From a virus, in UHGV virus genome UHGV-2124252: DNA of 38,108 nucleotides; one strand, 5' to 3'. How positions within the stretch are numbered: the stretch's first letter is position 1; each line of letters opens with the position of its first letter. Position numbers and translations under genes: made by a program. A model generated the notes under the pieces. The model was not told where the DNA came from and did not search any database. It saw only the letters and a list, made by a program, of their open reading frames with translations. This document shows, one piece after another, positions 1 to 36,375 of the stretch.

Positions 1-123
1 ATTCGCCTGAAACGTTACGATGCCAAACGTCAGGAGAAAATGCGCGCGGCGCTGGAACAGTTGAAAGGGCTGGAAAATCTCTCTGGCGATCTGTACGAGA
101 AGATCACCAAAGCACTGGCTTGA
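1..123 (+). CDS. pepN: Aminopeptidase N, 3' end (partial, runs off left edge; stop TGA 121-123)
   Basis: In-frame translation ends ...IRLKRYDAKRQEKMRAALEQLKGLENLSGDLYEKITKALA*, matching the remembered C-terminus of enterobacterial PepN; followed by a terminator hairpin. Confidence 0.75.
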   Translation: MRLKRYDAKRQEKMRAALEQLKGLENLSGDLYEKITKALA

Positions 124-130
124 TAAATAA

Positions 131-160
131 CCGAATGGCGGCAATAGCGCCGCCATTCGG
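131..160. terminator. Bidirectional rho-independent terminator between convergent pepN and ssuB
   Basis: Perfect 12-bp inverted repeat ccgaatggcggc (131-142) / gccgccattcgg (149-160) with 6-nt loop, between the two convergent stop codons. Confidence 0.6.
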
Positions 161-165
161 AGAAT

Positions 166-426
166 TTACCCCTGTTTTCTCAGGCGAGTTTCAAATTCAC
201 CACGCTGCATCACCCGCTGCAATACTTCCGCTTCCAGCTCTGCTAATCGTACCGACCCTAACCGGCGCGGACGGGGGATATCCACCGTCAAATCCAGACC
301 AATTTTTCCCTCTTCAATTAACAACACCCGGTCAGCCATCGCCACCGCTTCGCTCACATCATGCGTCACCAGCAAGACGGTAAAGCCGTGCTCCTGCCAG
401 AGTGATACAATCAAATCCTGCATCTC
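166..426 (-). pseudogene. ssuB: ABC transporter ATP-binding subunit (aliphatic sulfonate SsuB-like), 3' fragment only; 5' part absent because the prophage end abuts it
   Basis: Translation ...(E)[47 protein letters not shown]... is the H-loop/C-terminal part of an ABC ATPase; Walker A/B and signature motif that must precede it are missing; frame breaks at ~427 where phage end sequence starts. Confidence 0.75.
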
Positions 427-428
427 GA

Positions 429-506
429 TGATGCGCCGCGCGATAAATGCACTCTATCTTGTGCGATAAATGGCATCCACGCGGCGTTTCATTATTTGAA
501 AAAGAA
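429..506. repeat. Prophage terminal region with putative transposase-binding repeats
   Basis: Terminal TGATGCGCCGCGCGATAAATGC resembles the Mu attR terminal site as remembered (TGAAGCGGCGCACGAAAAACGC); direct repeats GCGATAAATG at 440-449 and 463-472 and related GCGGCGTTTCA at 481-491, located between host junction and gin stop. Confidence 0.5.
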
Positions 507-1079
507 TTACATTTCAGGTTGCGTTATGACAGTCCCAACAGGGTGATAGCGGTAGATCGTTGACAGTCCAATATCATAGATAATTGCCAGCCGCTTTCTG
601 TCATACCCTTTCTGGAGCAATCTTGCGATCTGCTCATGCTGCTCCTTCGTCAGTTTCGGGCGACGCCCTCCAACTCTTCCTTGTGATCGCGCAGCAGCCA
701 GTCCTGCCAGCGTGCGCTCAACTATCAGTTCACGCTCCATTTCTGCCAGTGCACCCATCATATGAAAAAAGAACCTTCCCATCGGAGTGCTGGTATCGAT
801 TGAATCCGTCAGACTGCGAAAATTGACACCTTTTGCGCGTAGCTCTTCTGTGAGAGCAATGAGGTGTTTCATTCTTCTACCCAACCGATCCAGCTTCCAG
901 ACCACCAATGTATCCCCTCTTTTAAGGCACTTTAAAGCGCGTTTCAGGCCTGGTCGTTCCGACTTGGTTCCGCTCATTTTGTCCTCAAAAATCTGTTCAC
1001 ATCCTGCGCACATTAATGCATTGCGTTGCAAATCTGTGTTTTGGTCATTTGTTGACACACGTATGTAGCCAATCAGCAT
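507..1079 (-). CDS. gin: Serine DNA invertase, Gin/Hin/Cin/Pin family
   Basis: MLIGYIRVSTNDQNTDLQRNAL...GDTLVVWKLDRLGR...FFFHMMGALAEMERELIVERT..., resolvase catalytic Ser motif and C-terminal HTH; ATG at 1079; adjacent to invertible tail-fibre cassettes. Confidence 0.93.
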   Translation of the reverse strand: MLIGYIRVSTNDQNTDLQRNALMCAGCEQIFEDKMSGTKSERPGLKRALKCLKRGDTLVVWKLDRLGRRMKHLIALTEELRAKGVNFRSLTDSIDTSTPMGRFFFHMMGALAEMERELIVERTLAGLAAARSQGRVGGRRPKLTKEQHEQIARLLQKGYDRKRLAIIYDIGLSTIYRYHPVGTVITQPEM

Positions 1080-1133
1080 TAAAAATACTCCCTTTTGAGT
1101 GGTTAAAGTACTGAGATAATGTGGGGAGGATTT

Positions 1134-1159
1134 GAGAGATAAACGTTGGTTTGGGGGAA
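1134..1159 (+). other. gix-like recombination site A (26 bp, 12-2-12)
   Basis: Right half GGTTTGGGGGAA (reverse complement TTCCCCCAAACC fits gix/hix half-site pattern TTnnCnnAAACC), central TT; starts ~150 bp of sequence identical to sites B and C. Confidence 0.55.
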
Positions 1160-1654
1160 GGCTCGGCGCTGCCCGTTGGTGTACCTGTTCCGTGGCCCAC
1201 TGCCACACCGCCAGCAGGCTGGTTAAAGTGCGACGGGCGCGCCTTTACAAAAGAACAATATCCTGTTCTGGCCAGAGCCTACCCGACCCTCCGCCTGCCT
1301 GATTTACGCGGTGAATTTATTCGTGGTTGGGATGATGGGCGAGGGGTTGATACGAGGCGTTCATTGCTAAGTGGTCAGACTGCAACATTTATTCGTACAG
1401 CTTTGCAGGATTATTACGGTGTCGATCTGACTACTAATGTCAAAGTAGGTATCGCTTATGCTACTGCTGATTCTGTTATAACTGTTGGAAACCCTGCTAA
1501 TCCTAAAGCAGGAGATAATAGCGATTATGTTCCAGCATCATCAGATAACTCCATAACAGGCACTCAAAGGACGGCAGAGGATAATTTTACCGGGGCATGG
1601 ATATCAATGCGCCCCCGCAATGTTGCTTTTAATTACATCGTAAGGGCCGCATAA
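1151..1654 (+). CDS. Alternative tail-fibre C-terminal cassette 1 (promoterless, currently not fused to fibre gene)
   Basis: ORF begins inside crossover site, no ATG/RBS; N-terminal 63 aa identical to C-terminal domain start of active fibre (GEGSALPVGVPVPWPTATPPAGWL...), variable middle, conserved end ...RPRNVAFNYIVRAA. Confidence 0.7.
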   Translation: MGEGSALPVGVPVPWPTATPPAGWLKCDGRAFTKEQYPVLARAYPTLRLPDLRGEFIRGWDDGRGVDTRRSLLSGQTATFIRTALQDYYGVDLTTNVKVGIAYATADSVITVGNPANPKAGDNSDYVPASSDNSITGTQRTAEDNFTGAWISMRPRNVAFNYIVRAA

Positions 1655-1673
1655 AAACGTTGGTTTGGGGGAA
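1648..1673 (+). other. gix-like recombination site B
   Basis: Same core as site A (AAACG TT GGTTTGGGGGAA), direct orientation relative to A. Confidence 0.55.
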
Positions 1674-2138
1674 GGCTCGGCGCTGCCCGTTGGTGTACCG
1701 GTTCCATGGCCCACCGCCACACCGCCAGCAGGCTGGTTACAGTGCAACGGAGCTACGTTCACCAAAGAACAATATCCTGTTCTGGCCAGAGTCTACCCGA
1801 CCCTCCGTCTTCCCGATTTACGCGGTGAGTTTATCCGTGGATGGGACGACGGGCGCAAGATTGACGAGGGGCGTAAGTTGCTTTCATGGCAGAAAGGTAC
1901 ACTGGTCGGCGGTCATGACGATAACGATTCTGCGCTTGATATCTCGTACATGAGTAACGGAAATAATATTGACTATGGCGGCGATAAGGTGTTTGCGGGG
2001 AATTACCGTAGCGATTATTTGTGGTACGCAATGCTGGGTGGAACAAACAGTCGCGCAAAAGCCGAATTAAACGGAGCATTCTTTAACATAACCCGCCCCC
2101 GCAATATCGCGTTTAACTATATCGTGAGGGCGGCGTGA
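1665..2138 (+). CDS. Alternative tail-fibre C-terminal cassette 2 (promoterless)
   Basis: Same conserved N-terminal 60 aa and C-terminal ...RPRNIAFNYIVRAA as cassette 1 and the active fibre, different central region. Confidence 0.7.
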   Translation: MGEGSALPVGVPVPWPTATPPAGWLQCNGATFTKEQYPVLARVYPTLRLPDLRGEFIRGWDDGRKIDEGRKLLSWQKGTLVGGHDDNDSALDISYMSNGNNIDYGGDKVFAGNYRSDYLWYAMLGGTNSRAKAELNGAFFNITRPRNIAFNYIVRAA

Positions 2139-2144
2139 TACCGT

Positions 2145-2759
2145 TCAACTGGCAAGTGCCAGTGGCGCTTCCGGCCAGCTGATTTCAGGTGCCGTGCTGA
2201 TATCCAGTGCGTTCAGCTCGTCGATATAATCCAGCACGGCGTTCAGTTTTGCCGTTTCTTCTGGTTTCAGACTGCGACCTGCCCGCAGTTTGAGGTTGAT
2301 GAGGTCGATGGACTTCATCGCCTGATCCACCCGTTTCTGGCGTTGCAGTCTGGCAGTCTCCAGCTCTGCGGTTCGCTGCCGTTCAGTATCGGTTACCCAC
2401 GCCTCACCGTTCCAGGTATCCCATGGCGTGGCTGGCTGTTTTGTGGTGGTGTCCGCCGGGTAATCACCCGGTTGGGTAATCAGAACGGGGTTACCGTTCT
2501 CCGTGCTGTATACCGTCTCGCCGCGGTGATCAGGCACATGCTCCCACCCGTTCAGCGTGGCAGTCCGGCAAACCACGTAACCCGAAATTGCCTCCGGCGG
2601 TGCATCGGCGCACGAATGTGCCGGAGTACCCACCCCAAGGGCGAGATACTCCACAGAGGATGAGGTGTATTCCCGGGTTTCCTCGTCATAGTGATATACA
2701 GTGATCTCGCCCGCTACAGTGGCGATACCGTTTTCATCCAGAACTGCAGTGTTACTCAT
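2145..2759 (-). CDS. Tail fibre assembly protein (Mu U / P2 G / lambda Tfa family)
   Basis: 204 aa, immediately downstream of fibre gene with overlapping TAATG; C-terminal region typical of Tfa chaperones (...KSIDLINLKLRAGRSLKPEETAKLNAVLDYIDELNALDIS...). Confidence 0.8.
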   Translation of the reverse strand: MSNTAVLDENGIATVAGEITVYHYDEETREYTSSSVEYLALGVGTPAHSCADAPPEAISGYVVCRTATLNGWEHVPDHRGETVYSTENGNPVLITQPGDYPADTTTKQPATPWDTWNGEAWVTDTERQRTAELETARLQRQKRVDQAMKSIDLINLKLRAGRSLKPEETAKLNAVLDYIDELNALDISTAPEISWPEAPLALAS

Positions 2760-4282
2760 TAAACTGCCCTCACAATGTAATTAAGTGCAATGCTACGGGG
2801 TCTGACAGTGATACCCTTCGCATACCCGCTTCTGATAGAGGTCAGAATAGTAGCCTGCATACCATTGTCTGACATTGCCACGACAGGATCGCTGAATGTT
2901 GTCCCGTCCGGCATTTTAAAGCTGCCCTCACGAAGGTCTGTAATGGAATCTTCATTGTTGAATCCCATGCCGACTATCCCCGAGGTTCCCGTAGTGTCCT
3001 GGTTATAATAATCCAGCATTGCTGTTCTTAACAGCGTTGCCCCTTGTGCGGACAGCAACTTACGTCCTGTATCAACTTTGCGCCCGTCGTCCCATCCACG
3101 GATAAACTCACCGCGTAAATCGGGAAGACGGAGGGTCGGGTAGGCTCTGGCCAGAACAGGATATTGTTCTTTTGTAAAGGCGCGCCCGTCGCACTTTAAC
3201 CAGCCTGCTGGCGGTGTGGCAGTGGGCCACGGAACAGGTACACCAACGGGCAGCGCCGAGCCTTCCCCCAAACCAAGGTAATTGAGGACATCTTTTATAC
3301 TGCCCTTAGCGATAATAGCGCGACCAATAGCTGTAAGGGTTGCCAGCGCTGCGCGGTCTGCTCCGGTAAAATAAGGCAACCGATCTGCTGCAGTGGCAAG
3401 TCCTGCCAGAGCAGTGAGCGTGGCATCTGCCGGTTGTTTTCCGTTTGCCAGATCGTATGCAGCCTTGACCGCTTTCGGTGTGGCGGCCAGTATTTCAGAC
3501 GTGCTGTTGATGGCACTGCTCAATTGTACGGTGCCTTTTGCCGTCAGCGAGGCAGCAGGCACTCCCGTTATCTGACTCCACGGGTGAGTGTGGCTGACGG
3601 GCGCCTTGCCGGCTGCAAGGTCGTATGCAGCCTTGACCGCCTTCGNNNNNNNNNNNNNNNNNNNNNNNNNNNNNNNAAGGTCGTATGCAGCCTTGACCGC
3701 TTTCGGTGTGGCGGCCAGCGTTTCAGACGTGTTGTTGATGGCACTGCTCAGTTGTACGATCCCTTTACGGGTCGTTGTTGCATCCTGGGCTGTGTATTTT
3801 CCCCGGGCCAGATCATACGCGATTTTCACAGCCTTCGGCGTGGCAGCCTCAGTTTCTGATTGACTGTCCGTGGCGCTGCTCAGTTGTACGGTGCCTTTTG
3901 CCGTCAGTGAAGCCGCAGGCACTCCCGTTATCTGACTCCACGGGTGAGTGTGGCTGGCAGGCGCCTTGCCGGCTGCCAGGTCGTATGCAGCCTTGACCGC
4001 TTTTGGTGTGGCGGCCAGCGTTTCAGAGGTGCTGTTGGTGGCACTGCTCAGTTGGGTGAACCCCTTAGCTGTCAGTGTCGCGTCCGGGTGGTTACGGGAA
4101 CGTACGTGTTCAGCCAGTGACTGTGCGGCTTCCTCCGTTTTCTTCTTCAGCCATTTCGTCCTGTTTGCCAGTTGCCGGGGGGCTCGATTTGATATCCCGT
4201 CTGCACCACCCAGAACCGGATCTGATGTCTCCAGTTGATAGATATTTTCTTCCCACTTTTCTGTTTCATTCAGGTTTCCCAT
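2759..4282 (-). CDS. Tail fibre protein (Mu S / P2 H-like), contains 31-N assembly gap
   Basis: About five tandem ~58-aa repeats (ATPKAVKAAYDL...HTHPWSQITGVPAASLTAKGTVQLSSA...), C-terminal cassette after crossover site C; ATG at 4282 preferred over TTG at 4288. Confidence 0.85.
   Translation of the reverse strand: MGNLNETEKWEENIYQLETSDPVLGGADGISNRAPRQLANRTKWLKKKTEEAAQSLAEHVRSRNHPDATLTAKGFTQLSSATNSTSETLAATPKAVKAAYDLAAGKAPASHTHPWSQITGVPAASLTAKGTVQLSSATDSQSETEAATPKAVKIAYDLARGKYTAQDATTTRKGIVQLSSAINNTSETLAATPKAVKAAYDLXXXXXXXXXXXKAVKAAYDLAAGKAPVSHTHPWSQITGVPAASLTAKGTVQLSSAINSTSEILAATPKAVKAAYDLANGKQPADATLTALAGLATAADRLPYFTGADRAALATLTAIGRAIIAKGSIKDVLNYLGLGEGSALPVGVPVPWPTATPPAGWLKCDGRAFTKEQYPVLARAYPTLRLPDLRGEFIRGWDDGRKVDTGRKLLSAQGATLLRTAMLDYYNQDTTGTSGIVGMGFNNEDSITDLREGSFKMPDGTTFSDPVVAMSDNGMQATILTSIRSGYAKGITVRPRSIALNYIVRAV
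3263..3288 (-). other. gix-like recombination site C (inverted relative to A and B)
   Basis: ttcccccaaacc aa ggtaattgagga on plus strand; lies at the constant/variable boundary of the expressed fibre gene (…LNYLGL|GEGSALP…). Confidence 0.55.
3646..3676. other. Assembly gap (31 N) inside tail-fibre repeat array
   Basis: Run of N flanked on both sides by the same repeat unit (aaggtcgtatgcagccttgaccgc). Confidence 0.95.
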
Positions 4283-4284
4283 AA

Positions 4285-4863
4285 TCAACTGCTCCCGTGG
4301 TTATAACTGCCATCATGGATGGCTGTATTGTTATAGCGAATGGCCACAGACTGATACTCCAGGCTGGCCAGATGGCAGCGGGCCGGTGCAAATGCAGCCA
4401 GCGTCTGACGCAGCATCGCGGCCTGATCGTTAGTAATGGGCTGTTTCAGAATAACGCGATAAACTGCCCAGGCGGCTGCATCTCCATGAACAAACAGTCC
4501 GTTATAGCTGCGATTGCCGTCGTAACTGAGACGACCTGTGCCTTCAATCAGATCCACTTCACCAAAGCCAAAACGGCGGATAACTTCCCGGATTGACCAC
4601 GGCGTCCCTTTATACCGGTGCAGTTCGATGGCTGCTTTTATAAGCATGCGGCGAACATCGTCCGATTCCGCCAGCTCCCAGCCATCGCCAGACAGTGAGA
4701 ACTGCTCGCCCAGCCATGGCAGCGCGGAACTGTCGACGATATCGACGAGAAAGACCATCAGTACGCTCAGGTCGATGTTATCCAGCCGTCCTGCCAGTCT
4801 TCCCAGCGTCCTGAGACTGATATCACCCTCAAGCGGTGGCGGGAGTTGTAATGGCTCAGTCAT
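4285..4863 (-). CDS. Baseplate protein, P2 gpI-like (Mu gp48 position)
   Basis: 192 aa, ATGA overlap with next gene, position between J-like and fibre. Confidence 0.7.
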   Translation of the reverse strand: MTEPLQLPPPLEGDISLRTLGRLAGRLDNIDLSVLMVFLVDIVDSSALPWLGEQFSLSGDGWELAESDDVRRMLIKAAIELHRYKGTPWSIREVIRRFGFGEVDLIEGTGRLSYDGNRSYNGLFVHGDAAAWAVYRVILKQPITNDQAAMLRQTLAAFAPARCHLASLEYQSVAIRYNNTAIHDGSYNHGSS

Positions 4864-26818: not shown

Positions 26819-27198
26819 CGCATAATCCGGGATACGCATTCAGCGATGACTGCATTTTCACCGGTTTTTACTGCATCCAGAAGTGACTCTTTAAATGGTG
26901 CGGGCCGGGGCTGCAGAAGGGTCGGCGTGGCATTGAGCAGACGGAGCGTTTTTTCCGTGAGGACGACATCAGCCGCTCCCACAGCCAGCAACTGAGAGTA
27001 ACGAATATAGCTGTTATCCCGAAGCCATATCAGCGTATCAATAAAATACCGGCACTTTTTCTGGTCGTGATCAACCTGGTCCGGGATATCGAAAAAACCA
27101 GAATAAATCAAAACCTGAGGTGCCGGATGCGTGTTCAGTAATCGGCAGAATATTTTGCCGGTGAGTGCATAAAAATCATCATTTAAGGAGTGCATCAT
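26794..27198 (-). CDS. Hypothetical protein
   Basis: 134 aa, only long ORF in an AT-richer stretch; GGGGA RBS. Confidence 0.5.
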   Translation of the reverse strand: MMHSLNDDFYALTGKIFCRLLNTHPAPQVLIYSGFFDIPDQVDHDQKKCRYFIDTLIWLRDNSYIRYSQLLAVGAADVVLTEKTLRLLNATPTLLQPRPAPFKESLLDAVKTGENAVIAECVSRIMRYVFNERK

Positions 27199-27412
27199 GA
27201 ATCCCCGATTAACGTTAACAGAACATCAGCGCCGTGCTGAAGCAGTGAACAATGTTCTGGAAGATATTATCCGGTTACATCGCGGAGAACTGAGTGTCTG
27301 TCGTGCCGCTTTTCATTTTCAGGGAATACAAAAGCAGTTTGATACTTCTGTTTTTGCAGAAGGTATTACTTATGCCCTGGACCGGATAAGGTCAGAAAAT
27401 CGCCCCGGATAA
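27197..27412 (+). CDS. Hypothetical small protein
   Basis: 71 aa, strong AAGGAG RBS 6 nt upstream of ATG. Confidence 0.5.
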   Translation: MNPRLTLTEHQRRAEAVNNVLEDIIRLHRGELSVCRAAFHFQGIQKQFDTSVFAEGITYALDRIRSENRPG

Positions 27413-27467
27413 TCCCTAAACCACATTAACAGAAATCCCACTATCCCTGCCGCATCATGAAAGAACG

Positions 27468-27498
27468 ACCAGCCCGGTGCTTCGGACCCACCGGGCTG
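27468..27498. other. GC-rich stem-loop (11-bp perfect stem, 9-nt loop)
   Basis: ccagcccggtg / caccgggctgg; U-rich tract follows on minus strand only. Confidence 0.5.
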
Positions 27499-27603
27499 GC
27501 CATCGTCCCACAGAAGTGGCTGTGAGCCGACCGAGGTTCAGTCAGTCTCGCGAGACCAGACTAGCCTGCCATATTTTTAATAATTGTAAAAGGCTTACAG
27601 ATT

Positions 27604-28368
27604 ATGAAAATGAAGACATTACCCATCGTTCCATGGATTGGTGGCAAACGTCGCCTGGCAAAACACATCCTGCCGCTGTTTCCGGCGCATGAATGTTATG
27701 TGGAGCCGTTTTGTGGGGCAGCAGCGCTCTATTTTCTTAAGACACCCGGCAAGATCGAAGTCATCAATGATATCAACGGTGAACTGGTGAATCTGTACCG
27801 GGTGGTAAAGCATCACCTGGAAGAATTTGTCCGCCAGTTCAAATGGGCGCTGGTCAGCCGTCAGATCTACAAATGGCTGCAGATCACCCCGGAAGAAACA
27901 CTGACGGATATCCAGCGTGCGGCACGGTTCTACTACCTTCAGAAGCAGGCGTTTGGCGGCAAGGTGGCAGAGCACAGCTTCGGTACCTCCACCACATCCC
28001 CGCCACGCTTCAACCTGCTGCGTATTGAAGAAGAACTGTCAGCAGCACACCTGCGGCTTTCCAGAACAGTCATAGAACACATGGACTGGCAACAGTGCAT
28101 TGAGCGTTATGATCGTCCGCACACACTGTTCTACTGCGACCCACCGTACCTGGGTACGGAAGGCTATGGTGTGGATTTTCCTGAAGGGAACTACTCGCGG
28201 CTGGCAGAGCTGGCCCGGTGCATCAGAGGAAAAATGATAATTTCGGTGAACGATATCCCACAGATGCGCGAGGTGTTCACTGGACTGAACATACAGACAG
28301 TGAACATCAACTACAGTCTGGCGGGGAAATCCACGCCGCGCCGTGAACTGGTAATCTGCAACTTCTGA
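27604..28368 (+). CDS. DNA N6-adenine methyltransferase (Dam-like, D12 class)
   Basis: N-terminal AdoMet-binding FCGAAALYF and catalytic DPPY motif. Confidence 0.9.
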   Translation: MKMKTLPIVPWIGGKRRLAKHILPLFPAHECYVEPFCGAAALYFLKTPGKIEVINDINGELVNLYRVVKHHLEEFVRQFKWALVSRQIYKWLQITPEETLTDIQRAARFYYLQKQAFGGKVAEHSFGTSTTSPPRFNLLRIEEELSAAHLRLSRTVIEHMDWQQCIERYDRPHTLFYCDPPYLGTEGYGVDFPEGNYSRLAELARCIRGKMIISVNDIPQMREVFTGLNIQTVNINYSLAGKSTPRRELVICNF

Positions 28369-28369
28369 A

Positions 28370-28400
28370 ACAAAACCGGAAAGCACAATGCTTTCCGGTA
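28370..28400. terminator. Rho-independent terminator between convergent dam-like and repressor genes
   Basis: ccggaaagc acaat gctttccgg; on minus strand followed by TTTTGTTT. Confidence 0.6.
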
Positions 28401-28484
28401 AACCAAACAACTTCCACTATGTCACTGGCGATGTTTTCTGAAAGCATCCAGATCAACCACCTGTCCTTTGTGTCCAGGTCAAAA

Positions 28485-28823
28485 TCAGCCTGCGAGTTTG
28501 CTTGGTTTGGGGTGAATGAAGACTTTGCCGACCTCAAGAATTGCCCTCCGTTGTTCGGGGCTCATTTCGTCGAATGCATCCATTAACTCTTTCTTTTCTT
28601 GTGACACATAAGGTGCAACAACAGGCTGACTCCGCACCCCAGTAACTACATACAAAATATCTACACCGATTTCTGATAGTGCAGATAACTGCACTGCAGT
28701 AGGAGAAGTGCGATCTTTTTCCCAATCAATGAAAGTTCTCTTTGCCACACCTATAGCATCAGCCAACCCTTGCTGTGTAAGAGATAGACGCTCTCTTTCT
28801 TCTTTAATACGTAACCCGATCAT
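28485..28823 (-). CDS. Phage repressor, XRE-family HTH
   Basis: MIGLRIKEERERLSLTQQGLADAIGVAKRTFIDWEKDRTSP... HTH near N-terminus; divergent from early operon; start assigned to ATG 28823 (longer ORF to 28976 would overlap early promoter/RBS). Confidence 0.7.
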   Translation of the reverse strand: MIGLRIKEERERLSLTQQGLADAIGVAKRTFIDWEKDRTSPTAVQLSALSEIGVDILYVVTGVRSQPVVAPYVSQEKKELMDAFDEMSPEQRRAILEVGKVFIHPKPSKLAG

Positions 28824-28847
28824 GTGAGTTTTTCTGCACTCTTTAAG

Positions 28848-28876
28848 TTGACTGGTGAGGTAATCTGCACCATAAT
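28848..28876 (+). promoter_or_regulatory. Candidate early promoter (sigma70-like)
   Basis: TTGACT (28848-28853), 17-bp spacer, CATAAT (28871-28876) upstream of Cro/Ner-like gene; flanked by repeated TCTGCAC motifs. Confidence 0.5.
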
Positions 28877-28923
28877 CTATCACACATAAGGCAAACATCA
28901 TTGCATCAACAAAGGAGACAACG

Positions 28924-29112
28924 ATGACTGCAGAACAAGTCAAAGCTCTCTTCCGCCAGCGCGGGATCACTTTCACCCGCTGGGCAGAAGAAAACGGCTA
29001 CAACCGCAATGAGGTATACCGCGTTCTCAATGGGCAGACCAAAGCCCGTTACGGTAAATCCCATGAAATCGCCGTGAAGTTGGGGCTGAAATCAACAGCT
29101 CAGGCAGCCTGA
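28924..29112 (+). CDS. Small Cro/Ner-like DNA-binding regulator (first early gene)
   Basis: 62 aa, AAAGGAG RBS, basic helix-turn-helix-like core; divergent from repressor. Confidence 0.65.
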   Translation: MTAEQVKALFRQRGITFTRWAEENGYNRNEVYRVLNGQTKARYGKSHEIAVKLGLKSTAQAA

Positions 29113-29164
29113 AGATTTTGAGTCTTTGTAAAAGGTTATCACATATCGCAAAAGAGGTATGCAG

Positions 29165-29473
29165 ATGAGTAAGACGAATGTTTCAAGCTCCGGCAGTCGC
29201 ATCCTCCGGGTACTCAAAGCGCTGCGCGGTCATGCCCTGAACGGTATTTCCAACGGTGAACTGGCGGCAGCACTGCACGAGTCACCGGCAAACATCAACC
29301 GGGCACTCAACACCCTCATTGAAGAAGGGTTGGCCCTGAAACTGGAAAACGGGCGTTTCGCGCCGGGCATCCAGTTACTGCAGATCGCTATGGCCCACAG
29401 TAACGAGATGGCACGTGCACAGGATCGCATTAACGAAATCAACCAACGTGTCATTTCAGGTAGTCGTTTGTAA
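29165..29473 (+). CDS. Winged-helix-like putative regulator
   Basis: 102 aa from ATG 29165 (AAGAGG RBS). Confidence 0.5.
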   Translation: MSKTNVSSSGSRILRVLKALRGHALNGISNGELAAALHESPANINRALNTLIEEGLALKLENGRFAPGIQLLQIAMAHSNEMARAQDRINEINQRVISGSRL

Positions 29474-29483
29474 GGAGTAATAA

Positions 29484-30395
29484 ATGGGACGCACCAAATC
29501 ACCGATTAACACTGAACTGAACGCCGAGGTACCGCTGTCGGATGATCTCAATGTCAGTCTGAACGCCATGACACAGCATCGTATGGAGATCATGCAGCAG
29601 TTTGGCGATGGTCAGCCCTATGAGCGTGATCGCATAGTTCATGAGGCTCGGTTTTATATGGCACAGAGCGCTGAGGCCATGCTGGAAGCAGGTAAACGAC
29701 TTATTATTCTCAAAGAAAATGAACCTCACGGGGACTTTGTTGGAATTGTAGAAGAACAACTTGGTCTGCATGTGCGCGCAGCACAACGAATGATGAAAGC
29801 ATCTTTGAAATACCTTTCACCAAAACTAGAGCCAAAAGCGACAACGTTGTCGCTTTTAGGTAAGGCAAAATTATTTGAACTTGTTGCTGAAGATGACGAC
29901 GACCTTGCTGAACTGGCCGGCGGTGGCACAGTTGCCGGACTGACGCTTGACGATGTTGATCGCATGTCAGTACGTGAATTGCGTCAGGCCCTGCGCGAAG
30001 CGCGCGAAACCAACGCAGCACAACAGCGCGTACTCGCCGACAAAAATGAAAAAATAGACTCACTCTCCACCAGACTGGAGAAGAAATCCCGTATTCAGCC
30101 GCCTGAGCCTGATGAAGAGGTTAAGAAGCTGCGGGCGGAAGTGACAGCATTAGCGGTTGAGGCGGAATCTGCTATCGCCGTTCGACTGTCCAGCGCTTTT
30201 GAGACGCTGTGCGCATATTGTGCTGAAAACATGATTGATACCCCCAGAGACTTCATGGCAGGCCTGGTCTGTCAACTGGAAAGCACAGCGCGTAGCCTGC
30301 GCTCCACATTTGACCTGCCGGATGAGCCAACAGGCAATGCCGCGCCTTCATGGCTGACTGAGCCGACGCCACAGATTAACGGGCTGGAGGCATAA
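29484..30395 (+). CDS. Hypothetical early protein
   Basis: 303 aa, acidic coiled-coil centre, immediately upstream of transposase. Confidence 0.55.
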   Translation: MGRTKSPINTELNAEVPLSDDLNVSLNAMTQHRMEIMQQFGDGQPYERDRIVHEARFYMAQSAEAMLEAGKRLIILKENEPHGDFVGIVEEQLGLHVRAAQRMMKASLKYLSPKLEPKATTLSLLGKAKLFELVAEDDDDLAELAGGGTVAGLTLDDVDRMSVRELRQALREARETNAAQQRVLADKNEKIDSLSTRLEKKSRIQPPEPDEEVKKLRAEVTALAVEAESAIAVRLSSAFETLCAYCAENMIDTPRDFMAGLVCQLESTARSLRSTFDLPDEPTGNAAPSWLTEPTPQINGLEA

Positions 30396-30398
30396 CCA

Positions 30399-32168
30399 AT
30401 GAATGCTGCCCTGACTGAACGACTGGTTTATGTCGCCCGCGCGGCACGTGACGCGGGGCATGGTAAACGCGGTGCAATATACGACGCTGCCTGTGCTGAA
30501 CTTGGCATGTCCCGCGCCACTCTGCTGCGCAGGCTGAAGGAGGTCTCTGTGACTGATAAACGCAAAAAACGCGCTGATGCCGGACGCAGCGCCCTGACCC
30601 GCGACGAAGCCGCGCTGATATCTGCCACACTGCGTGAGGCCACCCGCAAGAACGGTAAACGCCTCTATTCCATCGCAGATGCAGTGGAAACCCTGCGGGC
30701 TAACGGCTTTATCACCGCAGGCAGAACAGATGAAACCACCGGTGAGTTTTTCCCGTTGTCTGAAGATGCCATCAGCCGTGCTCTGCGTAACTATGGCCTG
30801 CACCCGGAACAACTGGATGCTCCTGCACCGCATACCGAAGTGGCCAGTCTGCACCCCAATCATGTCTGGCAGATTGACGCCTCACTCTGCACGCTTTACT
30901 ACCTGAGCAATGGACATAAAGGGCTGCAGGTGATGGACAGCGCGAAGTTCTACAAGAACAAGCCCGCTAACCTTGCCCGTATCGCCAGTGACCGCGTGTG
31001 GAGTTACGAGATTACCGACCATGCCAGCGGCTGGATTTACGTTGAGTATGTGACGGGCGCGGAATCAGGTGAGAACCTGTGTTCTGTGCTTATCAACGCC
31101 ATGCAGGAGCGTGGCGGCGCAGACGTGCTGCACGGCGTGCCAAAAATACTCTATCTCGACCCCGGCTCGGCAAACACCGCGGGTATGACGAAAAACATGT
31201 GCCGCTCACTGGGCATCGACCTGATAGCGCACAAGCCGCATAACGCCCGCGCCACCGGACAGGTGGAAAAGGCGCGGGACATTATCGAACGCAAGCTGGA
31301 GCCGGGTCTGAAGTTCCGGCCGGTTCACAGTCTGGAAGAACTCAATGCGCTGGCCGCGAAATGGCGCAGCCACTTTAACGCCACGGCTGTTCACAGCCGC
31401 CACGGTAAAACCCGCACGGATATCTGGCTGAAGATTACTGCTGAGCAGCTGAAAAAAGCGCCTTCCGTTGAGGTATGTCGTGAACTGGCTGTGGCGGCAC
31501 CAGAACTCCGCAAAGTCACGCCAAAACTTCGTGTCTCGTTCCGGGGCACTGAATTTGACGTATCAACGGTACCGGGCGTACTGGTCGGTGAAAAACTGAT
31601 GATTACCCGTAACCCGTGGCGCAGCGATGTGGCACAGGTGGTTCTGACCGGTGAGGACGGCCACGAGACGTTCTTCCTGGTCGAAGAAGTCAGAAAGAAC
31701 GAGTTTGGCTTTGCTGAAGGCGCGGCGGTATTTGGCGAAAGTTACAAAGCCCTGCCGGAAACCCCGGCGCAGATGGCGGCAAAAGAAACCGAAGCGCTGG
31801 TCACCGGTACAGACAACGCCGCAGATGCAGCTGCCGCACGCAAGGCGAAGGCGCTGCCGTTCGGCGGGCGGCTTGACCCATATAAACATATTGATGACGC
31901 CACACTTCCGGCCTATATGCCGAAGCGAGGTCAGGCCTCTGACGTACGCGGGCCGCGCACTGAACAACGTCCCATGACTCATGTGGAGGCCGCGAAAGCC
32001 CTGCGCGATAAGTTCAGCGCCGACGGCCTTACCTGGACGCCGGAACATTACCGCCAGTTAACGGCACAGTATCCGGACGGCGTACCGGAAGCCGCACTGG
32101 ATGAAGTCATGGCCACGCTGACCACGCCGGCCCGCAGCAGCGTTATCAGCATTGTTAACGGCAACTGA
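30399..32168 (+). CDS. DDE transposase A (Mu A / TnsB / TniA family core)
   Basis: 589 aa; N-terminal HTH, catalytic core beginning HVWQIDAS; followed by ATPase partner gene. Confidence 0.88.
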   Translation: MNAALTERLVYVARAARDAGHGKRGAIYDAACAELGMSRATLLRRLKEVSVTDKRKKRADAGRSALTRDEAALISATLREATRKNGKRLYSIADAVETLRANGFITAGRTDETTGEFFPLSEDAISRALRNYGLHPEQLDAPAPHTEVASLHPNHVWQIDASLCTLYYLSNGHKGLQVMDSAKFYKNKPANLARIASDRVWSYEITDHASGWIYVEYVTGAESGENLCSVLINAMQERGGADVLHGVPKILYLDPGSANTAGMTKNMCRSLGIDLIAHKPHNARATGQVEKARDIIERKLEPGLKFRPVHSLEELNALAAKWRSHFNATAVHSRHGKTRTDIWLKITAEQLKKAPSVEVCRELAVAAPELRKVTPKLRVSFRGTEFDVSTVPGVLVGEKLMITRNPWRSDVAQVVLTGEDGHETFFLVEEVRKNEFGFAEGAAVFGESYKALPETPAQMAAKETEALVTGTDNAADAAAARKAKALPFGGRLDPYKHIDDATLPAYMPKRGQASDVRGPRTEQRPMTHVEAAKALRDKFSADGLTWTPEHYRQLTAQYPDGVPEAALDEVMATLTTPARSSVISIVNGN

Positions 32169-32178
32169 GGAGGGATAC

Positions 32179-33345
32179 ATGCTGGTACTGAAGCAGCAAC
32201 TGAAAGAGGCCCGTATTCCACAGGCGGTGGTGGCGAGAGCTGTCGATGTTTCTGAGGCCACGCTGGCCCAGATTGTGAATCATAACGCGTGGCCCCGCAC
32301 CAGCCCCGGAGAAGTGCGCCGGCGTCTTGCGTCCTGGCTGGAAAGTCAGGGGATTGATACAACGAAGAGTTTTGATGCTGTACAGGGCGCAGCCACGCCC
32401 CGTACAGCGGGTACCACAGATAAAACGAGCCTCAGTGAGGAAGAGAATATGTTACTCAAAAAACAGGTGTTATTTCCAGCAACCAAAAAAGCGTTTGGTC
32501 TTTTCCGTGACCCGTTCGCCGATGAAGCCATGCAGGGTTCTGATGATGTGTTCACCACCCCGGACATTCGCTACGTGCGTGAGGCGTTGTACCAGACAGC
32601 CCGTCATGGTGGGTTTATGGCCGTCATCGGTGAGTCCGGTGCGGGTAAATCCACGCTGCGCCGCGACCTGACTGAACGTATCAACCGCGAGAATGCGCCG
32701 GTAATTGTTATCGAGCCATACATCATCGCTATGGAAGACAACGATGTGAAAGGGAAAACCCTGAAGGCAGCAGCGATTGCCGAAGCCATTATCAGTACCA
32801 TCGCACCACTGGAAAGCATCAGACGCAGTCAGGACGCCCGCTTTCGCCAGTTGCATCGCGTCCTGAAAGACAGCAGCCAGGCGGGGTTCAGCCACGTTTT
32901 GGTGATTGAGGAGGCCCACAGTCTGCCCATTCCGACACTGAAACACCTCAAACGCTTTTTTGAGCTGGAGTCCGGTTTCAAAAAACTGCTGTCCATCGTG
33001 CTGATTGGCCAGCCGGAACTGGCGACAAAACTGTCTGAACGCAATATGGAAGTCCGTGAAGTCGTTCAGCGTTGTGAGGTGGTCGAACTTCTGCCTCTGG
33101 ACAATAACCTTGAAGAATTTCTGACGTTCAAACTGCAACGGGCCGGTAAACAACTGACGGACATTATGGACGCCAGCGCAGTGGATGCCATACGTGCCCG
33201 CCTGAGCAATCCGGGAAGTCATCGTAAAAATATGGTCAGCCTGCTGTATCCGCTGGCCGTCAGTAACCTGGTGATAGCCGCCATGAATCTGGCCGCTGAA
33301 ATCGGGGTTCCACAGGTCAACGCTGACGTTGTCAAAGGGGTTTAA
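32179..33345 (+). CDS. Transposition ATPase B (Mu B / TniB-like AAA+)
   Basis: Walker A GESGAGKST, Walker B-like HVLVIEEAH; start ATG 32179 with GAGGAGGG RBS. Confidence 0.85.
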   Translation: MLVLKQQLKEARIPQAVVARAVDVSEATLAQIVNHNAWPRTSPGEVRRRLASWLESQGIDTTKSFDAVQGAATPRTAGTTDKTSLSEEENMLLKKQVLFPATKKAFGLFRDPFADEAMQGSDDVFTTPDIRYVREALYQTARHGGFMAVIGESGAGKSTLRRDLTERINRENAPVIVIEPYIIAMEDNDVKGKTLKAAAIAEAIISTIAPLESIRRSQDARFRQLHRVLKDSSQAGFSHVLVIEEAHSLPIPTLKHLKRFFELESGFKKLLSIVLIGQPELATKLSERNMEVREVVQRCEVVELLPLDNNLEEFLTFKLQRAGKQLTDIMDASAVDAIRARLSNPGSHRKNMVSLLYPLAVSNLVIAAMNLAAEIGVPQVNADVVKGV

Positions 33346-33347
33346 TA

Positions 33348-33617
33348 ATGAAATCCACCACAGGTATCAACCAGCAAATCAGCAAAGTGCAGTCAGCCAT
33401 TATGGCGCTTAAGGCGACGAACACGGATGTACAAAGCATCACCATCAGGGGTAACAAACCTGTCATCCGCGTTTCCCGGAGTGCGCATTGCATGCGCATG
33501 CTTGAGCAGGGAAAGGCCTGTTATCTGTATACCGGACATGACCAAAGGGGATATTTCCGTCAGGGCGTTTTCGAACTGCACGGCTGTCGCGTCGTGTGGC
33601 CGGAATCTTTGTGGTAA
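33348..33617 (+). CDS. Hypothetical early protein
   Basis: 89 aa, RBS AGGGG. Confidence 0.5.
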   Translation: MKSTTGINQQISKVQSAIMALKATNTDVQSITIRGNKPVIRVSRSAHCMRMLEQGKACYLYTGHDQRGYFRQGVFELHGCRVVWPESLW

Positions 33618-33644
33618 TCAGCACAACAGGAGGAGTCATAAAAT

Positions 33645-34175
33645 ATGGCAAAAAGTACAAAAGGGGCAAAACGTATCAAAGCCGCAGCAGCACTCTGGGT
33701 GCCGGGGACACGCGAAGAGGTCATTGAGGGAATCAGACTGCTTGGTGACGCGCAACGTGAACTGGTCAGGGCTGAAACAGAAATGAATGACACCATTGGC
33801 GACATCACTGCACGTTATGCCCCGCTCACCGAGAGCCTGAAAAAACGCATGACCGAACTGCAGTCCGGTATCCAGACATGGTGTGAGGCGCACCGTGATG
33901 AACTGACCGGCAACGGGAAGGTGAAGTTCGCTAACCTCACCACCGGCGAGGTGCAGTGGCGAAACCGTCCGCCGTCAGTCAGCATTCGCGGGGCGGATAA
34001 TGTCATTGAACTGCTGAGACGTCTGGGGCTTGAGCGCTTTATTCGTGTAAAGGAGGAAATAAATAAAGATGCCATTCTGAATGAAAAAGAGGCTGTGAAA
34101 AATATTCCCGGTATTACCATAAAAAGTGATATTGAGGATTTTTCAATAATTCCTTTTGAGCAGGATGTGCAGTAA
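33645..34175 (+). CDS. gam: Host-nuclease inhibitor Gam (Mu Gam-like)
   Basis: MAKSTKGAKRIKAAAALWVP... and C-terminal ...DFSIIPFEQ closely resemble Mu Gam as remembered. Confidence 0.85.
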   Translation: MAKSTKGAKRIKAAAALWVPGTREEVIEGIRLLGDAQRELVRAETEMNDTIGDITARYAPLTESLKKRMTELQSGIQTWCEAHRDELTGNGKVKFANLTTGEVQWRNRPPSVSIRGADNVIELLRRLGLERFIRVKEEINKDAILNEKEAVKNIPGITIKSDIEDFSIIPFEQDVQ

Positions 34176-34272
34176 ACACACCACGTTAATTATTTAATAA
34201 AAACATTTTCTTTTTTATTCCGGTGTCAGCGCCGTGGGCTTCTGCACGCCGGAAACAGAGGAGAATTAAATT

Positions 34273-34467
34273 ATGATATTTAAATGTATTCAGTGCGAGA
34301 GGGATATAACAGCCCTGCGTTTTCACAGCGCCATCGCCGTGATGTCCGGTAAGTATCACATACCTGCAGTACGTGTCACCCTTGTCTGCCCGTACTGCAG
34401 CCAGCATTTTTCGGCGGACGTGCCCGTCATGGAATTCTCCCGCCCTGACAGGGAGGACGCGCAATGA
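34273..34467 (+). CDS. Small zinc-ribbon-like protein
   Basis: CxxC ... CxxC (C5,C8,C39,C42); GAGGAG RBS. Confidence 0.5.
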   Translation: MIFKCIQCERDITALRFHSAIAVMSGKYHIPAVRVTLVCPYCSQHFSADVPVMEFSRPDREDAQ

Positions 34468-34736
34468 TTACCCCACAGGAAGCACGACAGCGCACCCGAA
34501 CCCTTGTTGAACACTATGTCAACGAGTGTGAATGCCGCGACCTCACCGATGTGAAGCACGTCCTGACGGCGCTAATCAGCATGGCCACACAGGCCATTGT
34601 GGCGACCAACGGAAAGGAGGCTGCCCTGCAGGTACTGATGAACACACTCACCCACACGGCAGAGCATGAGGTGCCGTACCGGATGGAAACCACTGCAGAA
34701 GGCGGCCTGCACATCACCGTCAGCCGGAAGCACTGA
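34464..34736 (+). CDS. Hypothetical early protein
   Basis: 90 aa, ATGA-coupled. Confidence 0.45.
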   Translation: MITPQEARQRTRTLVEHYVNECECRDLTDVKHVLTALISMATQAIVATNGKEAALQVLMNTLTHTAEHEVPYRMETTAEGGLHITVSRKH

Positions 34737-34745
34737 GGGCGCGGC

Positions 34746-35042
34746 ATGACACGAAACACCGAACTCACCCGCACCGCCCTCTACCGTCTGGCCCTGCAGC
34801 GTTTCGGGCCGGACGCACAGGCCCTGAAACTGGCAGAAGAGGCCGCTGAACTGGCGGCCAGTGCCGCCCGCAACCTGAACGGACAGGGCAGCGAAAGTGA
34901 CCTCGCGGCAGAGCTGGCAGACGTGGAAATCATGACAGAGCAACTGCGCCTTCAGGGGATGGACCGGCTGATTGACTTCCACAAACAGAAAAAACTGGAA
35001 CGTCTGGCTGCACGACTGGGTGTGATTTACACGAACGAGTAA
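34746..35042 (+). CDS. MazG-like nucleotide pyrophosphohydrolase-like small protein (tentative)
   Basis: EExxE ... ExxD-type acidic helices (LAEEAAELA ... ELADVEIM). Confidence 0.4.
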   Translation: MTRNTELTRTALYRLALQRFGPDAQALKLAEEAAELAASAARNLNGQGSESDLAAELADVEIMTEQLRLQGMDRLIDFHKQKKLERLAARLGVIYTNE

Positions 35043-35056
35043 CCGGGAGGCATTCA

Positions 35057-35272
35057 ATGGCTGACATACTCAGGGAAATCACCGCATGGATACTGATTCT
35101 TACTGGCCTGGCGACATGCCTCAGTGCGGGGGCAGCCCTGGCTGCCCTGCTGATGCACATAACAACACAGTGGTTATGGGAAAAGCTTAAAGCAGCATAC
35201 AGCCTGAAAGAGCTGTCCGACGCTGTCCGGGCATGGAAACGGCAGAAAAATACCGGAGATACAGAACAATGA
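35057..35272 (+). CDS. Small membrane protein
   Basis: 71 aa with one hydrophobic helix; GGGAGG RBS. Confidence 0.5.
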   Translation: MADILREITAWILILTGLATCLSAGAALAALLMHITTQWLWEKLKAAYSLKELSDAVRAWKRQKNTGDTEQ

Positions 35273-35952: not shown

Positions 35953-36179
35953 TTACGCTATCAGGTAAAAGCCGGAAATTAAAAGCCTGCCGAATATCTG
36001 CCAGATACCTTTTTGCCCGCGCCTTTTTTAAGAACGTCAGGCCGGGGATCACAATTGGTGTTATTGCCGGACGCGAACAGGTTGAAAAATACATGTCAGG
36101 TGCATGGTGGAATAACGACCCTGTCATTGCTGCCCGTAATATTCATATCGAATGGGGAGGTATTCAGAATGACTACTGA
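35949..36179 (+). CDS. Hypothetical small protein
   Basis: 76 aa, ATGA-coupled. Confidence 0.4.
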   Translation: MITLSGKSRKLKACRISARYLFARAFFKNVRPGITIGVIAGREQVEKYMSGAWWNNDPVIAARNIHIEWGGIQNDY

Positions 36180-36375
36180 AACCATTGTCTGTTTTCTTTT
36201 CTGGTATATGTACGCAGGATCATGCAGCGCAAGACTTCATCGTTCCCTGGGCTATGGCAGGCACTACGACACCGCGCATTACATCCTGTACATGACCGCC
36301 GTCATGTTGTTCTGGCCAGTCACCCTGCCAGCTGCAACCGACATTGTTGCCGACAGACTGAAAAAAAGGAGATGA
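36169..36375 (+). CDS. Small membrane protein
   Basis: 68 aa, two hydrophobic helices, GGAGG RBS. Confidence 0.45.
   Translation: MTTETIVCFLFWYMYAGSCSARLHRSLGYGRHYDTAHYILYMTAVMLFWPVTLPAATDIVADRLKKRR

What the first reader, a model, noticed from the sequence alone, without database searches (positions are those of the whole stretch)
1134..3288. Three-site Gin inversion system controlling three alternative tail-fibre C-termini
Three copies of the same recombination core (AAACG/TTACC TT GGTTTGGGGGAAGG...) are present: sites A (1134-1159) and B (1648-1673) in direct orientation and site C (3263-3288) inverted, each followed by ~150 bp of identical sequence and then a divergent cassette. Only cassette C is fused to the constant part of the fibre gene; cassettes 1 and 2 are promoterless ORFs that begin inside the site in the correct frame for fusion. 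Inversion AxC or BxC would swap the receptor-binding domain. Mu G and P1 C segments have two sites and two alternatives; this is a nested arrangement closer to a shufflon.
Basis: partly seen in the sequence, partly recalled or inferred. Interest (0 to 1): 0.75.

Follow-up and report, generated by a model that had tools for sequence, protein, structure and literature searches.

The report
Three-site invertible tail-fibre switch in prophage
A prophage in this E. coli window carries a Gin-type DNA-flipping switch with three recombination sites that can put any of three alternative tips on its tail fibre; it is real and evidently active, but the same design, and inversion in a sister prophage, were already published in 2014.

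Summary
Three 26-bp sites (A 1134-1159 and B 1648-1673 direct, C 3263-3288 inverted) share the core TT|GGTTTGGGGGAA. Each heads a 226-229-nt repeat followed by a divergent tail-collar cassette. A Gin-like serine invertase (507-1079, 77% identical to Mu Gin) lies beside site A.

Both predicted fusions are in frame. Complete E. coli genomes carrying the same prophage in the same ssuB insertion show all four possible isomers: the window state, BxC, AxC and the double inversion. SNPs that travel with cassette C place the exchange within the 7 bp TTGGTTT, at the site core. That points to site-specific exchange rather than homologous recombination along the repeats.

It is not new in kind:
- Goldberg et al. 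2014 showed a homologous three-repeat, four-variant, three-C-terminus module in an EPEC P2-like prophage, by PCR and sequencing.
- Forde et al. 2014 saw AxC inversion in PacBio reads of the sister prophage EC958 Phi2, with the same site sequences.
- The six-site Min system of p15B is the classic multi-site precedent.

Verdict: a correct reading, a new member of a known kind, low interest.

The parts
429..506 (.). Right end of the transposable prophage, beginning 5'-TGATGCGCCGCGCGATAAATGC, where it abuts the truncated host gene ssuB (166-423, minus strand). Context only, not part of the switch.
   Evidence: The alignment with L003 and EC958 Phi2 (L010) is invariant from window 429 onward, while the three left flanks differ. 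ssuB is annotated as a pseudogene in L001/L002.
507..1079 (-). Gin/Pin-family serine DNA invertase, 190 aa, transcribed away from site A. The catalytic Ser9 context is YIRVSTNDQ. Residues H106 and M114 are wild type, which suggests Fis/enhancer dependence (inference).
   Evidence: Pfam Resolvase 2.2e-50 and HTH_7 1.3e-12. PHROG 125 'DNA invertase' 4.5e-94. 77% identical to Mu Gin and 86% to the EPEC P2-like prophage invertase. PDB Gin structures 4m6f and 3uj3 at about 1e-93.
995..1058 (-). Putative Fis-bound recombinational enhancer inside the 5' part of the invertase gene. It contains two G-N13-C elements, GTGTCAACAAATGAC and GCGCAGGATGTGAAC, whose starts are 49 nt apart. Inferred, not tested.
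   Evidence: This stretch aligns without indels to Mu gin and is among the best conserved DNA of the gene. The location of the enhancer in gin and hin rests on my own knowledge of Kahmann 1985 and Johnson & Simon 1985; the latter is listed.
1134..1159 (+). Crossover site A, GAGAGATAAACG|TT|GGTTTGGGGGAA, next to the invertase.
   Evidence: It is identical to the 'Phi2_3prime' site of EC958.
1148..1654 (+). Silent cassette 1, an alternative fibre C-terminus of 168 aa from the crossover. It consists of a tail-collar domain, a variable tip and the ending RPRNVAFNYIVRAA.
   Evidence: Pfam Collar 1.8e-16. In-frame fusion. Found fused to the constant part in L004 and L007.
1648..1673 (+). Crossover site B, CGCATAAAAACG|TT|GGTTTGGGGGAA. 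It overlaps the stop codon of cassette 1.
1662..2138 (+). Silent cassette 2, an alternative fibre C-terminus of 158 aa from the crossover.
   Evidence: Pfam Collar 1.4e-15. In-frame fusion. Found fused to the constant part in L005 and L006, with 100% identity over 843 nt in strain USVAST219.
2145..2759 (-). The single tail-fibre assembly (chaperone) gene. It lies inside the invertible segment directly downstream of cassette C, and is co-oriented with the fibre gene only in states I and IV.
   Evidence: Pfam Caudo_TAP 6.9e-27. PHROG 105. Its orientation in the isomers is shown.
2759..3274 (-). Cassette C, the C-terminus currently expressed (171 aa from the crossover).
   Evidence: Part of the 2759-4288 ORF. 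Collar domain found in the full-length homologue.
3263..3288 (-). Crossover site C, TCCTCAATTACC|TT|GGTTTGGGGGAA, inside the fibre gene and inverted relative to A and B.
   Evidence: Its variable half is identical to 'Phi2_5prime' of EC958.
3277..4288 (-). Constant N-terminal part of the tail-fibre gene (Phage_fiber_2 repeats). It is interrupted by an N-run at 3646-3676.
   Evidence: The 643-aa homologue has 7 Phage_fiber_2 repeats.

Best explanation
[quoted passage not shown] The invertase (507-1079) binds the 26-bp sites as dimers. It synapses site C with either A or B, which are inverted relative to C, and cuts at the central TT. It then exchanges the half-sites and so inverts either 2128 bp (AxC) or 1614 bp (BxC).

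The constant fibre part ends at the variable half of site C. Every cassette begins with the conserved half-site in the same frame. Each inversion therefore replaces the last ~160-170 residues of the fibre, meaning the collar domain plus the receptor-binding tip.

Three sites give four interconvertible states:
- State I: Sc-C, tfa>, <cas2, <cas1.
- State II: Sc-cas2, <tfa, <C, <cas1.
- State III: Sc-cas1, cas2>, <tfa, <C.
- State IV: Sc-cas1, C>, tfa>, <cas2.

These four states encode three fibre variants. The likely consequence is a mixed host range in the phage progeny.

Shown here: the sites, the frames, the invertase family, the existence of all four states, and the position of the crossover. 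Inferred: that this copy's own invertase does the work, that it depends on Fis and an enhancer, and that the variants differ in receptor specificity.
For: Sites and repeats.

In-frame fusions.

Invertase identity.

All four states were found at the same ssuB insertion, with segments 100% identical to the window:
- State I in L001 and L002.
- State II in L005.
- State III in L007.
- State IV in L004.

Crossover mapping: in this lineage cassette C carries GGTTTAGGAGAA plus linked SNPs. These always move with cassette C, while the variable half-sites stay with the constant part, the cas1 end or the invertase. The exchange therefore lies within TTGGTTT.

Census of 5,426 complete E. coli genomes, counting places that cover at least 80% of a junction query:
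- Sc|C 328.
- Sc|cas2 103.
- Sc|cas1 72.
- gin|cas1 127.
- gin|cas2 84.
- gin|C 227.

Published experiments on relatives:
- The alternative orientation of the EC958 Phi2 segment assembled as a separate PacBio contig, with the same A and C site sequences (PMC4134206).
- Four coexisting variants were shown by PCR and sequencing in the homologous EPEC module (PMC4272514).
Against: - There are no read-level data for the strain the window comes from, so ongoing switching in this particular copy is inferred from relatives.
- The Fis/enhancer requirement is untested.
- No host-range or receptor data exist for any of the three tips.
- Only one chaperone gene is present and it is antisense to the fibre in states II and III, so it is unknown whether cas1- and cas2-tipped fibres assemble.
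- The census counts pool related prophages at different loci. They are not independent events.
Confidence: 0.9

Rival explanations
1. The isomers arise by RecA-dependent homologous recombination between the 226-229-nt inverted repeats, and the 26-bp sites and invertase are incidental.
For: The repeats are long and similar enough for homologous recombination (226-229 nt at 86-92% identity, with up to 148 nt identical). The repeats are mosaics: C matches A in its first 148 nt and B later on. That implies past gene conversion.
Against: In all three rearranged states at the ssuB locus, the exchange lies between the base before the TT and the sixth base after it. This is 7 bp out of about 230 bp of homology. 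The alternative orientation was abundant enough in a single EC958 culture to assemble as its own PacBio contig, and four variants coexist in single EPEC colonies. That fits an invertase better than rare homologous recombination.
Confidence: 0.04
2. The sites are real and do recombine, but the inversions are catalysed in trans by another Pin/Gin-type invertase of the host rather than by the adjacent gene.
For: E. coli genomes that have any match to this region have a median of 4 matching places. Forde et al. inferred trans action for EC958 Phi4, whose own invertase is truncated. Cross-reactivity among Gin, Cin, Pin and Hin is established knowledge.
Against: The adjacent gene is intact, with catalytic-site context and HTH domain conserved. 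Its segment is 100% identical to the window in all four ssuB-locus isomers. This rival does not exclude the main explanation.
Confidence: 0.1
3. In this strain the switch is a frozen relic of a defective prophage, and the orientations seen in other genomes reflect old events fixed in lineages.
For: Only one state is visible in the window. State I is the commonest junction in the census (328 against 103 and 72). Variants damaged by an IS66 insertion or lacking cas1 exist (L007 and L006).
Against: Genomes with otherwise identical prophage segments at the same insertion differ in state. Genomes of one accession series (OZ038535 to OZ040963), with the locus at similar chromosomal positions, give the state I hit pattern, both state IV junctions and the state II junction; only L001-L007 were inspected in full. 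The sites, the invertase and all three cassettes are intact in the window.
Confidence: 0.06

Closest known systems
Three-inverted-repeat tail-fibre module of a P2-like prophage in EPEC E2348/69 (Goldberg et al. 2014, Genome Med 6:112; NC_011601.1 1891695-1893703)
   Same: The core is the same (ACC/ACG TT GGTTTGGGGGAAGGCTC...) and heads repeats of about 215-229 bp. The layout is the same: constant fibre part, three collar-domain cassettes, one tfa and an adjacent invertase that is 86% identical. Both have two overlapping inversions (about 2.0 and 1.6 kb from the Table S1 coordinates there, 2.1 and 1.6 kb here). Both give four variants and three alternative C-termini.
   Different: The host phage differs: P2-like there, a transposable phage with an rve transposase and a MuB-like ATPase here. 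The variable tips are unrelated; cassette identities of 47-54% come only from the shared collar domain and the C-terminal motif. The tfa proteins are 59% identical.
Prophage Phi2 of E. coli ST131 EC958 (Forde et al. 2014, PLoS One 9:e104400)
   Same: It belongs to the same prophage family. Its right end is identical, and its A site and the variable half of its C site match the window's exactly. The alternative orientation of its 2067-bp segment assembled as a separate PacBio contig.
   Different: It sits at a different insertion site, next to aroA. Its cassettes 1 and 2 are different alleles. The paper lists only two crossover sites, but the record also holds a middle site, GGCATAGAAACG|TT|GGTTTGGGGGAA.
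Phage Mu G segment / Gin (also P1 C/Cin and e14 P/Pin)
   Same: The invertase is 77% identical to Mu Gin. The sites are 26 bp with a conserved GGTTT...GAA half and a 2-bp core (gix is TTATCCAAAACC|TC|GGTTTACAGGAA). The fibre gene is split into constant and variable parts at the site. The invertase lies just outside the segment and is read in the same direction as the fibre.
   Different: Mu has two sites, two states and a dedicated chaperone for each variable part (U and U'). Here there are three sites and four states, a TT core rather than TC, a single tfa linked to cassette C, and two short cassettes without chaperones. The tfa is only 23% identical to Mu U over 79 residues.
Min multiple-inversion system of plasmid p15B (Sandmeier, Iida and Arber; recalled from my own knowledge, with Sandmeier 1994 cited within)
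   Same: A Din-family serine invertase acts on more than two crossover sites to shuffle alternative tail-fibre 3' ends.
   Different: By my recollection p15B has six sites and many isomers, against three sites and four isomers here. I did not compare the sequences.
R64-type shufflon (Rci / pilV)
   Same: The logic is the same: several alternative C-terminal cassettes are fused to one constant gene by nested inversions.
   Different: R64 uses the tyrosine recombinase Rci with 19-bp sfx sites, and the target is a pilus adhesin. Here the recombinase is a serine invertase. The resemblance is functional only; this is not a member.

Membership tests
Gin/Hin/Cin/Pin (Din) serine DNA-invertase systems | A small serine recombinase with an N-terminal resolvase catalytic domain and a C-terminal HTH, closely related to Gin, Hin, Cin and Pin | tested here: met
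   Pfam Resolvase and HTH_7. 77% identity to Mu Gin. Gin structures 4m6f and 3uj3 at E about 1e-93.
Gin/Hin/Cin/Pin (Din) serine DNA-invertase systems | 26-bp crossover sites with two imperfectly symmetric 12-bp halves around a 2-bp core that is identical in the partner sites | tested here: met
   All three sites have the form N12|TT|GGTTTGGGGGAA with the same TT polarity. They resemble Mu gix and the Sandmeier consensus reproduced in Forde's Table 3.
Gin/Hin/Cin/Pin (Din) serine DNA-invertase systems | The recombining sites are in inverted orientation and the DNA between them actually inverts | tested here: met
   A and B are inverted relative to C. AxC, BxC and double-inversion isomers exist at the same locus in other genomes, and the exchange maps to TTGGTTT.
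Gin/Hin/Cin/Pin (Din) serine DNA-invertase systems | A Fis-bound recombinational enhancer in cis, within the 5' part of the invertase gene in Mu and Salmonella | tested here: inconclusive
   The homologous stretch (window 995-1058) aligns without indels to Mu gin and holds two G-N13-C elements (and direct reading). Neither Fis binding nor Fis dependence can be tested here.
Gin/Hin/Cin/Pin (Din) serine DNA-invertase systems | Inversion depends on the invertase | not testable with these tools
   This needs genetics or an in vitro recombination assay.
Multi-site (shufflon-like) Din-family tail-fibre inversion modules (p15B Min; EPEC three-IR module) | More than two crossover sites, giving overlapping invertible segments and more than two isomers of one fibre gene | tested here: met
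   There are three sites. Four isomers were observed. All six junction types are recurrent in the census.
Multi-site (shufflon-like) Din-family tail-fibre inversion modules (p15B Min; EPEC three-IR module) | The isomers coexist within a clonal population | not testable with these tools
   No reads are available for this strain. Coexistence was shown for relatives in the literature.
R64-type shufflon | Tyrosine recombinase Rci acting on sfx repeats | tested here: not met
   The only recombinase at the locus is a serine invertase, and the sites are gix-like 26-mers.

The most novel reading that the evidence does not exclude
The four-state design may do more than choose among three tips. The only chaperone gene (tfa) is physically linked to cassette C and is co-oriented with the fibre gene in states I and IV only. 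States III and IV encode the same cas1 fibre with tfa antisense or sense, and the cas2 fibre never has a co-transcribed tfa. If cas1- and cas2-tipped fibres need Tfa, the switch would include cryptic 'fibre made but not assembled' states. If they do not need it, these short collar-domain tips would be chaperone-independent receptor-binding modules, unlike the Mu and P1 S/U pairs. Neither possibility is addressed in the 2014 passages I read.
Probability: 0.15. Interest if true: 0.4.

Novelty: new member of a known kind. Interest (0 to 1): 0.2.

Why it matters
The locus illustrates how a prophage hedges its host range, and it explains a recurrent source of assembly breaks and mis-annotation. The silent cassettes are labelled 'phage tail protein' or partial pseudogenes in RefSeq, and the window itself has a gap in the fibre gene. 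For ST131 genomics it means that differences at this locus between isolates are phase variation and should not be treated as phylogenetic signal. It opens no new question: the mechanism, the three-site architecture and inversion in this prophage family are all already documented.

Tried and rejected
- The phage collection search gave only 19 records and one near-full match, an unannotated prophage-derived record. It was not useful for scoring isomers.
- The genome-contig scan with the invertase returned only 5 loci, most cut at contig ends. A cross-species survey of site number was therefore not possible. It did show at least three tandem silent sites in an Escherichia sp. contig.
- The promoter/terminator scan of 400-4400 found fewer promoter-like sites than the shuffles did. 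It neither supports nor excludes independent expression of the cassettes or of tfa.
- I first read L006, which lacks cas1, as a homologous-recombination deletion because its cassette C begins with cas1-type SNPs. I dropped this when one search showed the same 'G-type' cassette C next to the invertase in other genomes such as IAI39. The SNPs are an allelic polymorphism, so deletion cannot be told apart from an ancestral two-cassette form.
- I considered that the window's G-type site C might be a short-read assembly chimera. I rejected this for the same reason.
- Structure prediction and the large protein searches were not run, because they would not have changed the verdict.
Full report
**1. 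What is in the sequence**

Window 1-4300 reads as follows on the plus strand.

- The 3' remnant of the host gene ssuB lies at 166-423 on the minus strand.
- The end of a prophage starts at 429.
- A 190-aa recombinase gene lies at 507-1079 on the minus strand.
- Two short plus-strand ORFs follow at 1151-1654 and 1665-2138.
- A tail-fibre assembly gene lies at 2145-2759 on the minus strand.
- A tail-fibre gene lies at 2759-4288 on the minus strand.

- A, 1134-1159: GAGAGATAAACG|TT|GGTTTGGGGGAA.
- B, 1648-1673: CGCATAAAAACG|TT|GGTTTGGGGGAA.
- C, 3263-3288 on the minus strand: TCCTCAATTACC|TT|GGTTTGGGGGAA.

The 40-mer starting at the central TT occurs exactly three times, against none in 100 shuffles. 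Each site heads a repeat of 226-229 nt at 86-92% identity. A and C are identical for 148 nt from the TT. A/B and B/C are identical for 40 nt. Beyond about 230 nt the three cassettes diverge to 31-46% identity.

**2. The parts**

The recombinase has Resolvase and HTH_7 domains. It is 77% identical to Mu Gin and matches the two Gin crystal structures at about 1e-93.

The three cassettes each encode a tail-collar domain (Pfam PF07484), a variable middle and a shared C-terminal motif, RPRN(I/V)AFNYIVRAA or RPRSIALNYIVRAV. The gene at 2145-2759 is a Caudo_TAP chaperone.

Joining the constant fibre part to cassette 1 or cassette 2 at the TT gives uninterrupted in-frame fibres.

The surrounding element is a transposable phage:

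- It has an rve-type transposase at 30399-32168 and a MuB-like AAA protein at 32152-33345.
- It has a P2-type baseplate.
- Its end at 429 begins with TG and abuts three different host sequences in three genomes. Further flanks appear among the hits.

**3. Does it invert?**

I built the two predicted fusion junctions and searched 5,426 complete E. coli genomes. Both junctions exist. Sc|cas2 is matched at 100% identity over 843 nt. Sc|cas1 is matched at 98%.

Fetching loci at the same ssuB/pepN insertion gave four states, with every segment 100% identical to the window:

- L001 and L002 have the window arrangement, state I.
- L005 (SK1144) has Sc-cas2, <tfa, <C, <cas1, which is the BxC product, state II.
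- L007 (CU568-3) has Sc-cas1, cas2>, <tfa, <C, which is the AxC product, state III. An IS66 element is inserted in cas2.
- L004 (SK0832) has Sc-cas1, C>, tfa>, <cas2, which is the double inversion, state IV.

These are exactly the four states that three sites in this geometry allow.

L006 (USVAST219) lacks cas1. I could not tell whether that is a deletion or an ancestral two-cassette form.

**4. Where is the crossover?**

In the ssuB lineage of complete genomes, cassette C carries a variant conserved half-site, GGTTTAGGAGAA, plus linked SNPs. In every isomer these stay with cassette C. The variable half-sites stay with their outside context, namely the constant part, the cas1 3' end or the invertase.

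The exchange therefore falls within TTGGTTT. That is 7 bp centred on the site core, out of about 230 bp of homology. This is what a serine invertase cutting at the central dinucleotide produces. It is not what homologous recombination along the repeats would give.

**5. Census**

Genomes with a place covering at least 80% of each junction query:

| Junction | Genomes |
|---|---|
| Sc\|C | 328 |
| Sc\|cas2 | 103 |
| Sc\|cas1 | 72 |
| gin\|cas1 | 127 |
| gin\|cas2 | 84 |
| gin\|C | 227 |

All six junction types recur. The counts pool related prophages at many loci, including two-cassette relatives. They show prevalence, not rates.

**6. Mechanism**

The best-supported model is standard Gin/Hin chemistry. 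Invertase dimers bound at C and at A or B synapse, make 2-bp staggered cuts at TT, rotate and religate. A and B are directly repeated. By established knowledge of this family, directly repeated sites should not recombine productively.

The stretch of the invertase gene where the Fis-bound enhancer maps in gin and hin (my recollection of Kahmann 1985 and Johnson & Simon 1985) is conserved without indels. It contains two G-N13-C elements at window 995-1058. This is inference only.

The single tfa lies directly downstream of cassette C and moves with it. Cassette C also has the most divergent C-terminal motif, as does the tfa-linked cassette X3 in EPEC. My inference is that C plus tfa forms a unit like Mu Sv-U, and that cas1 and cas2 are tips without chaperones.

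**7. Comparison with what is known**

Goldberg et al. 2014 (PMC4272514) found three 215-bp repeats in an EPEC E2348/69 P2-like prophage. These begin ACCTTGGTTTGGGGGAAGGCTC. They reported two overlapping inversions, four variants coexisting in single colonies and three alternative C-termini. The locus (L009) has the same gene layout and an invertase 86% identical to the window's.

Forde et al. 2014 (PMC4134206) reported a separately assembled PacBio contig carrying the alternative orientation of a 2067-bp segment of EC958 prophage Phi2. Its crossover sites were TCCTCAATTACCTTGGTTTAGGAGAA and GAGAGATAAACGTTGGTTTGGGGGAA. The second is identical to the window's site A. The first matches site C in its variable half and carries the GGTTTAGGAGAA variant of the conserved half. 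Phi2 is the same phage family at another insertion site. It also contains a middle site that is absent from the paper's table of crossover sites.

Multi-site Din-family systems go back to p15B Min (my own knowledge). R64 shufflons work alike but use a tyrosine recombinase, so this locus is not a member of that family.

**8. Verdict**

Novelty is low. This is a new member of a known kind, in a different phage backbone and with different tip alleles. The only open point of some interest is how fibres tipped with cas1 or cas2 assemble when the sole tfa is antisense.

Noticed in passing
window 3646-3676: A 31-nt N-run lies inside the Phage_fiber_2 repeat region of the fibre gene. The window's fibre ORF is 509 aa, but the same gene is 643 aa in L001 and L002 (up to 667 aa in L003). 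The window therefore has a collapsed or masked repeat here.
   Followed up: partly
window 166-429 and 27000-38108: The prophage is a transposable phage inserted in ssuB. Its end at 429 starts with TG and abuts different host genes in other genomes (ssuB, an FHIPEP gene, the aroA region; malE and folM also appear among the features listed). The early genes, including the transposase at 30399-32168, are on the plus strand and diverge from the late genes on the minus strand, unlike Mu. The window ends before the other phage end, so the target duplication could not be read.
   Followed up: partly
L012 44-1070 (Escherichia sp. MOD1-EC7003, contig end): Three directly repeated crossover sites about 500 nt apart lie next to an invertase that is 84% identical to the window's, and the contig breaks there. 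This implies an array of at least four sites, so cassette number varies within this module family.
   Followed up: no
L011 (CAXORL010000041.1, labelled Moraxella osloensis): A 1,268-nt contig carries this invertase at 99% identity and an exact site A. It is most likely E. coli contamination of that assembly.
   Followed up: no
L007 5878-9064 (strain CU568-3): An IS66-family element (ISCro1-like) is inserted in cassette 2 of the state III isomer. It disrupts one of the three alternative tips.
   Followed up: no
L006 (strain USVAST219): This is the same prophage at ssuB but without cassette 1: Sc-cas2, <tfa, <C, invertase. It could be a deletion between the directly repeated sites or repeats, or an ancestral two-cassette form. 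This was not resolved.
   Followed up: partly
window 3263-3274 compared with L001 5834-5859: The conserved half-site of cassette C is polymorphic. It reads GGTTTGGGGGAA with cas1-like SNPs in the window, USVAST219 and IAI39, and GGTTTAGGAGAA in most ssuB-lineage complete genomes and in EC958. The repeats are mosaics, which suggests gene conversion among the cassettes.
   Followed up: partly
L010 2480-2505 (EC958 record positions 1005979-1006004): EC958 prophage Phi2 has a third, middle crossover site, GGCATAGAAACG|TT|GGTTTGGGGGAA. It is absent from Table 3 of Forde et al. 2014, which lists only the outer pair.
   Followed up: yes
window 2145-2759: The single tail-fibre assembly gene lies inside the invertible DNA. 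It is co-oriented with the fibre gene in only two of the four states, and cassettes 1 and 2 have no chaperone gene of their own.
   Followed up: partly
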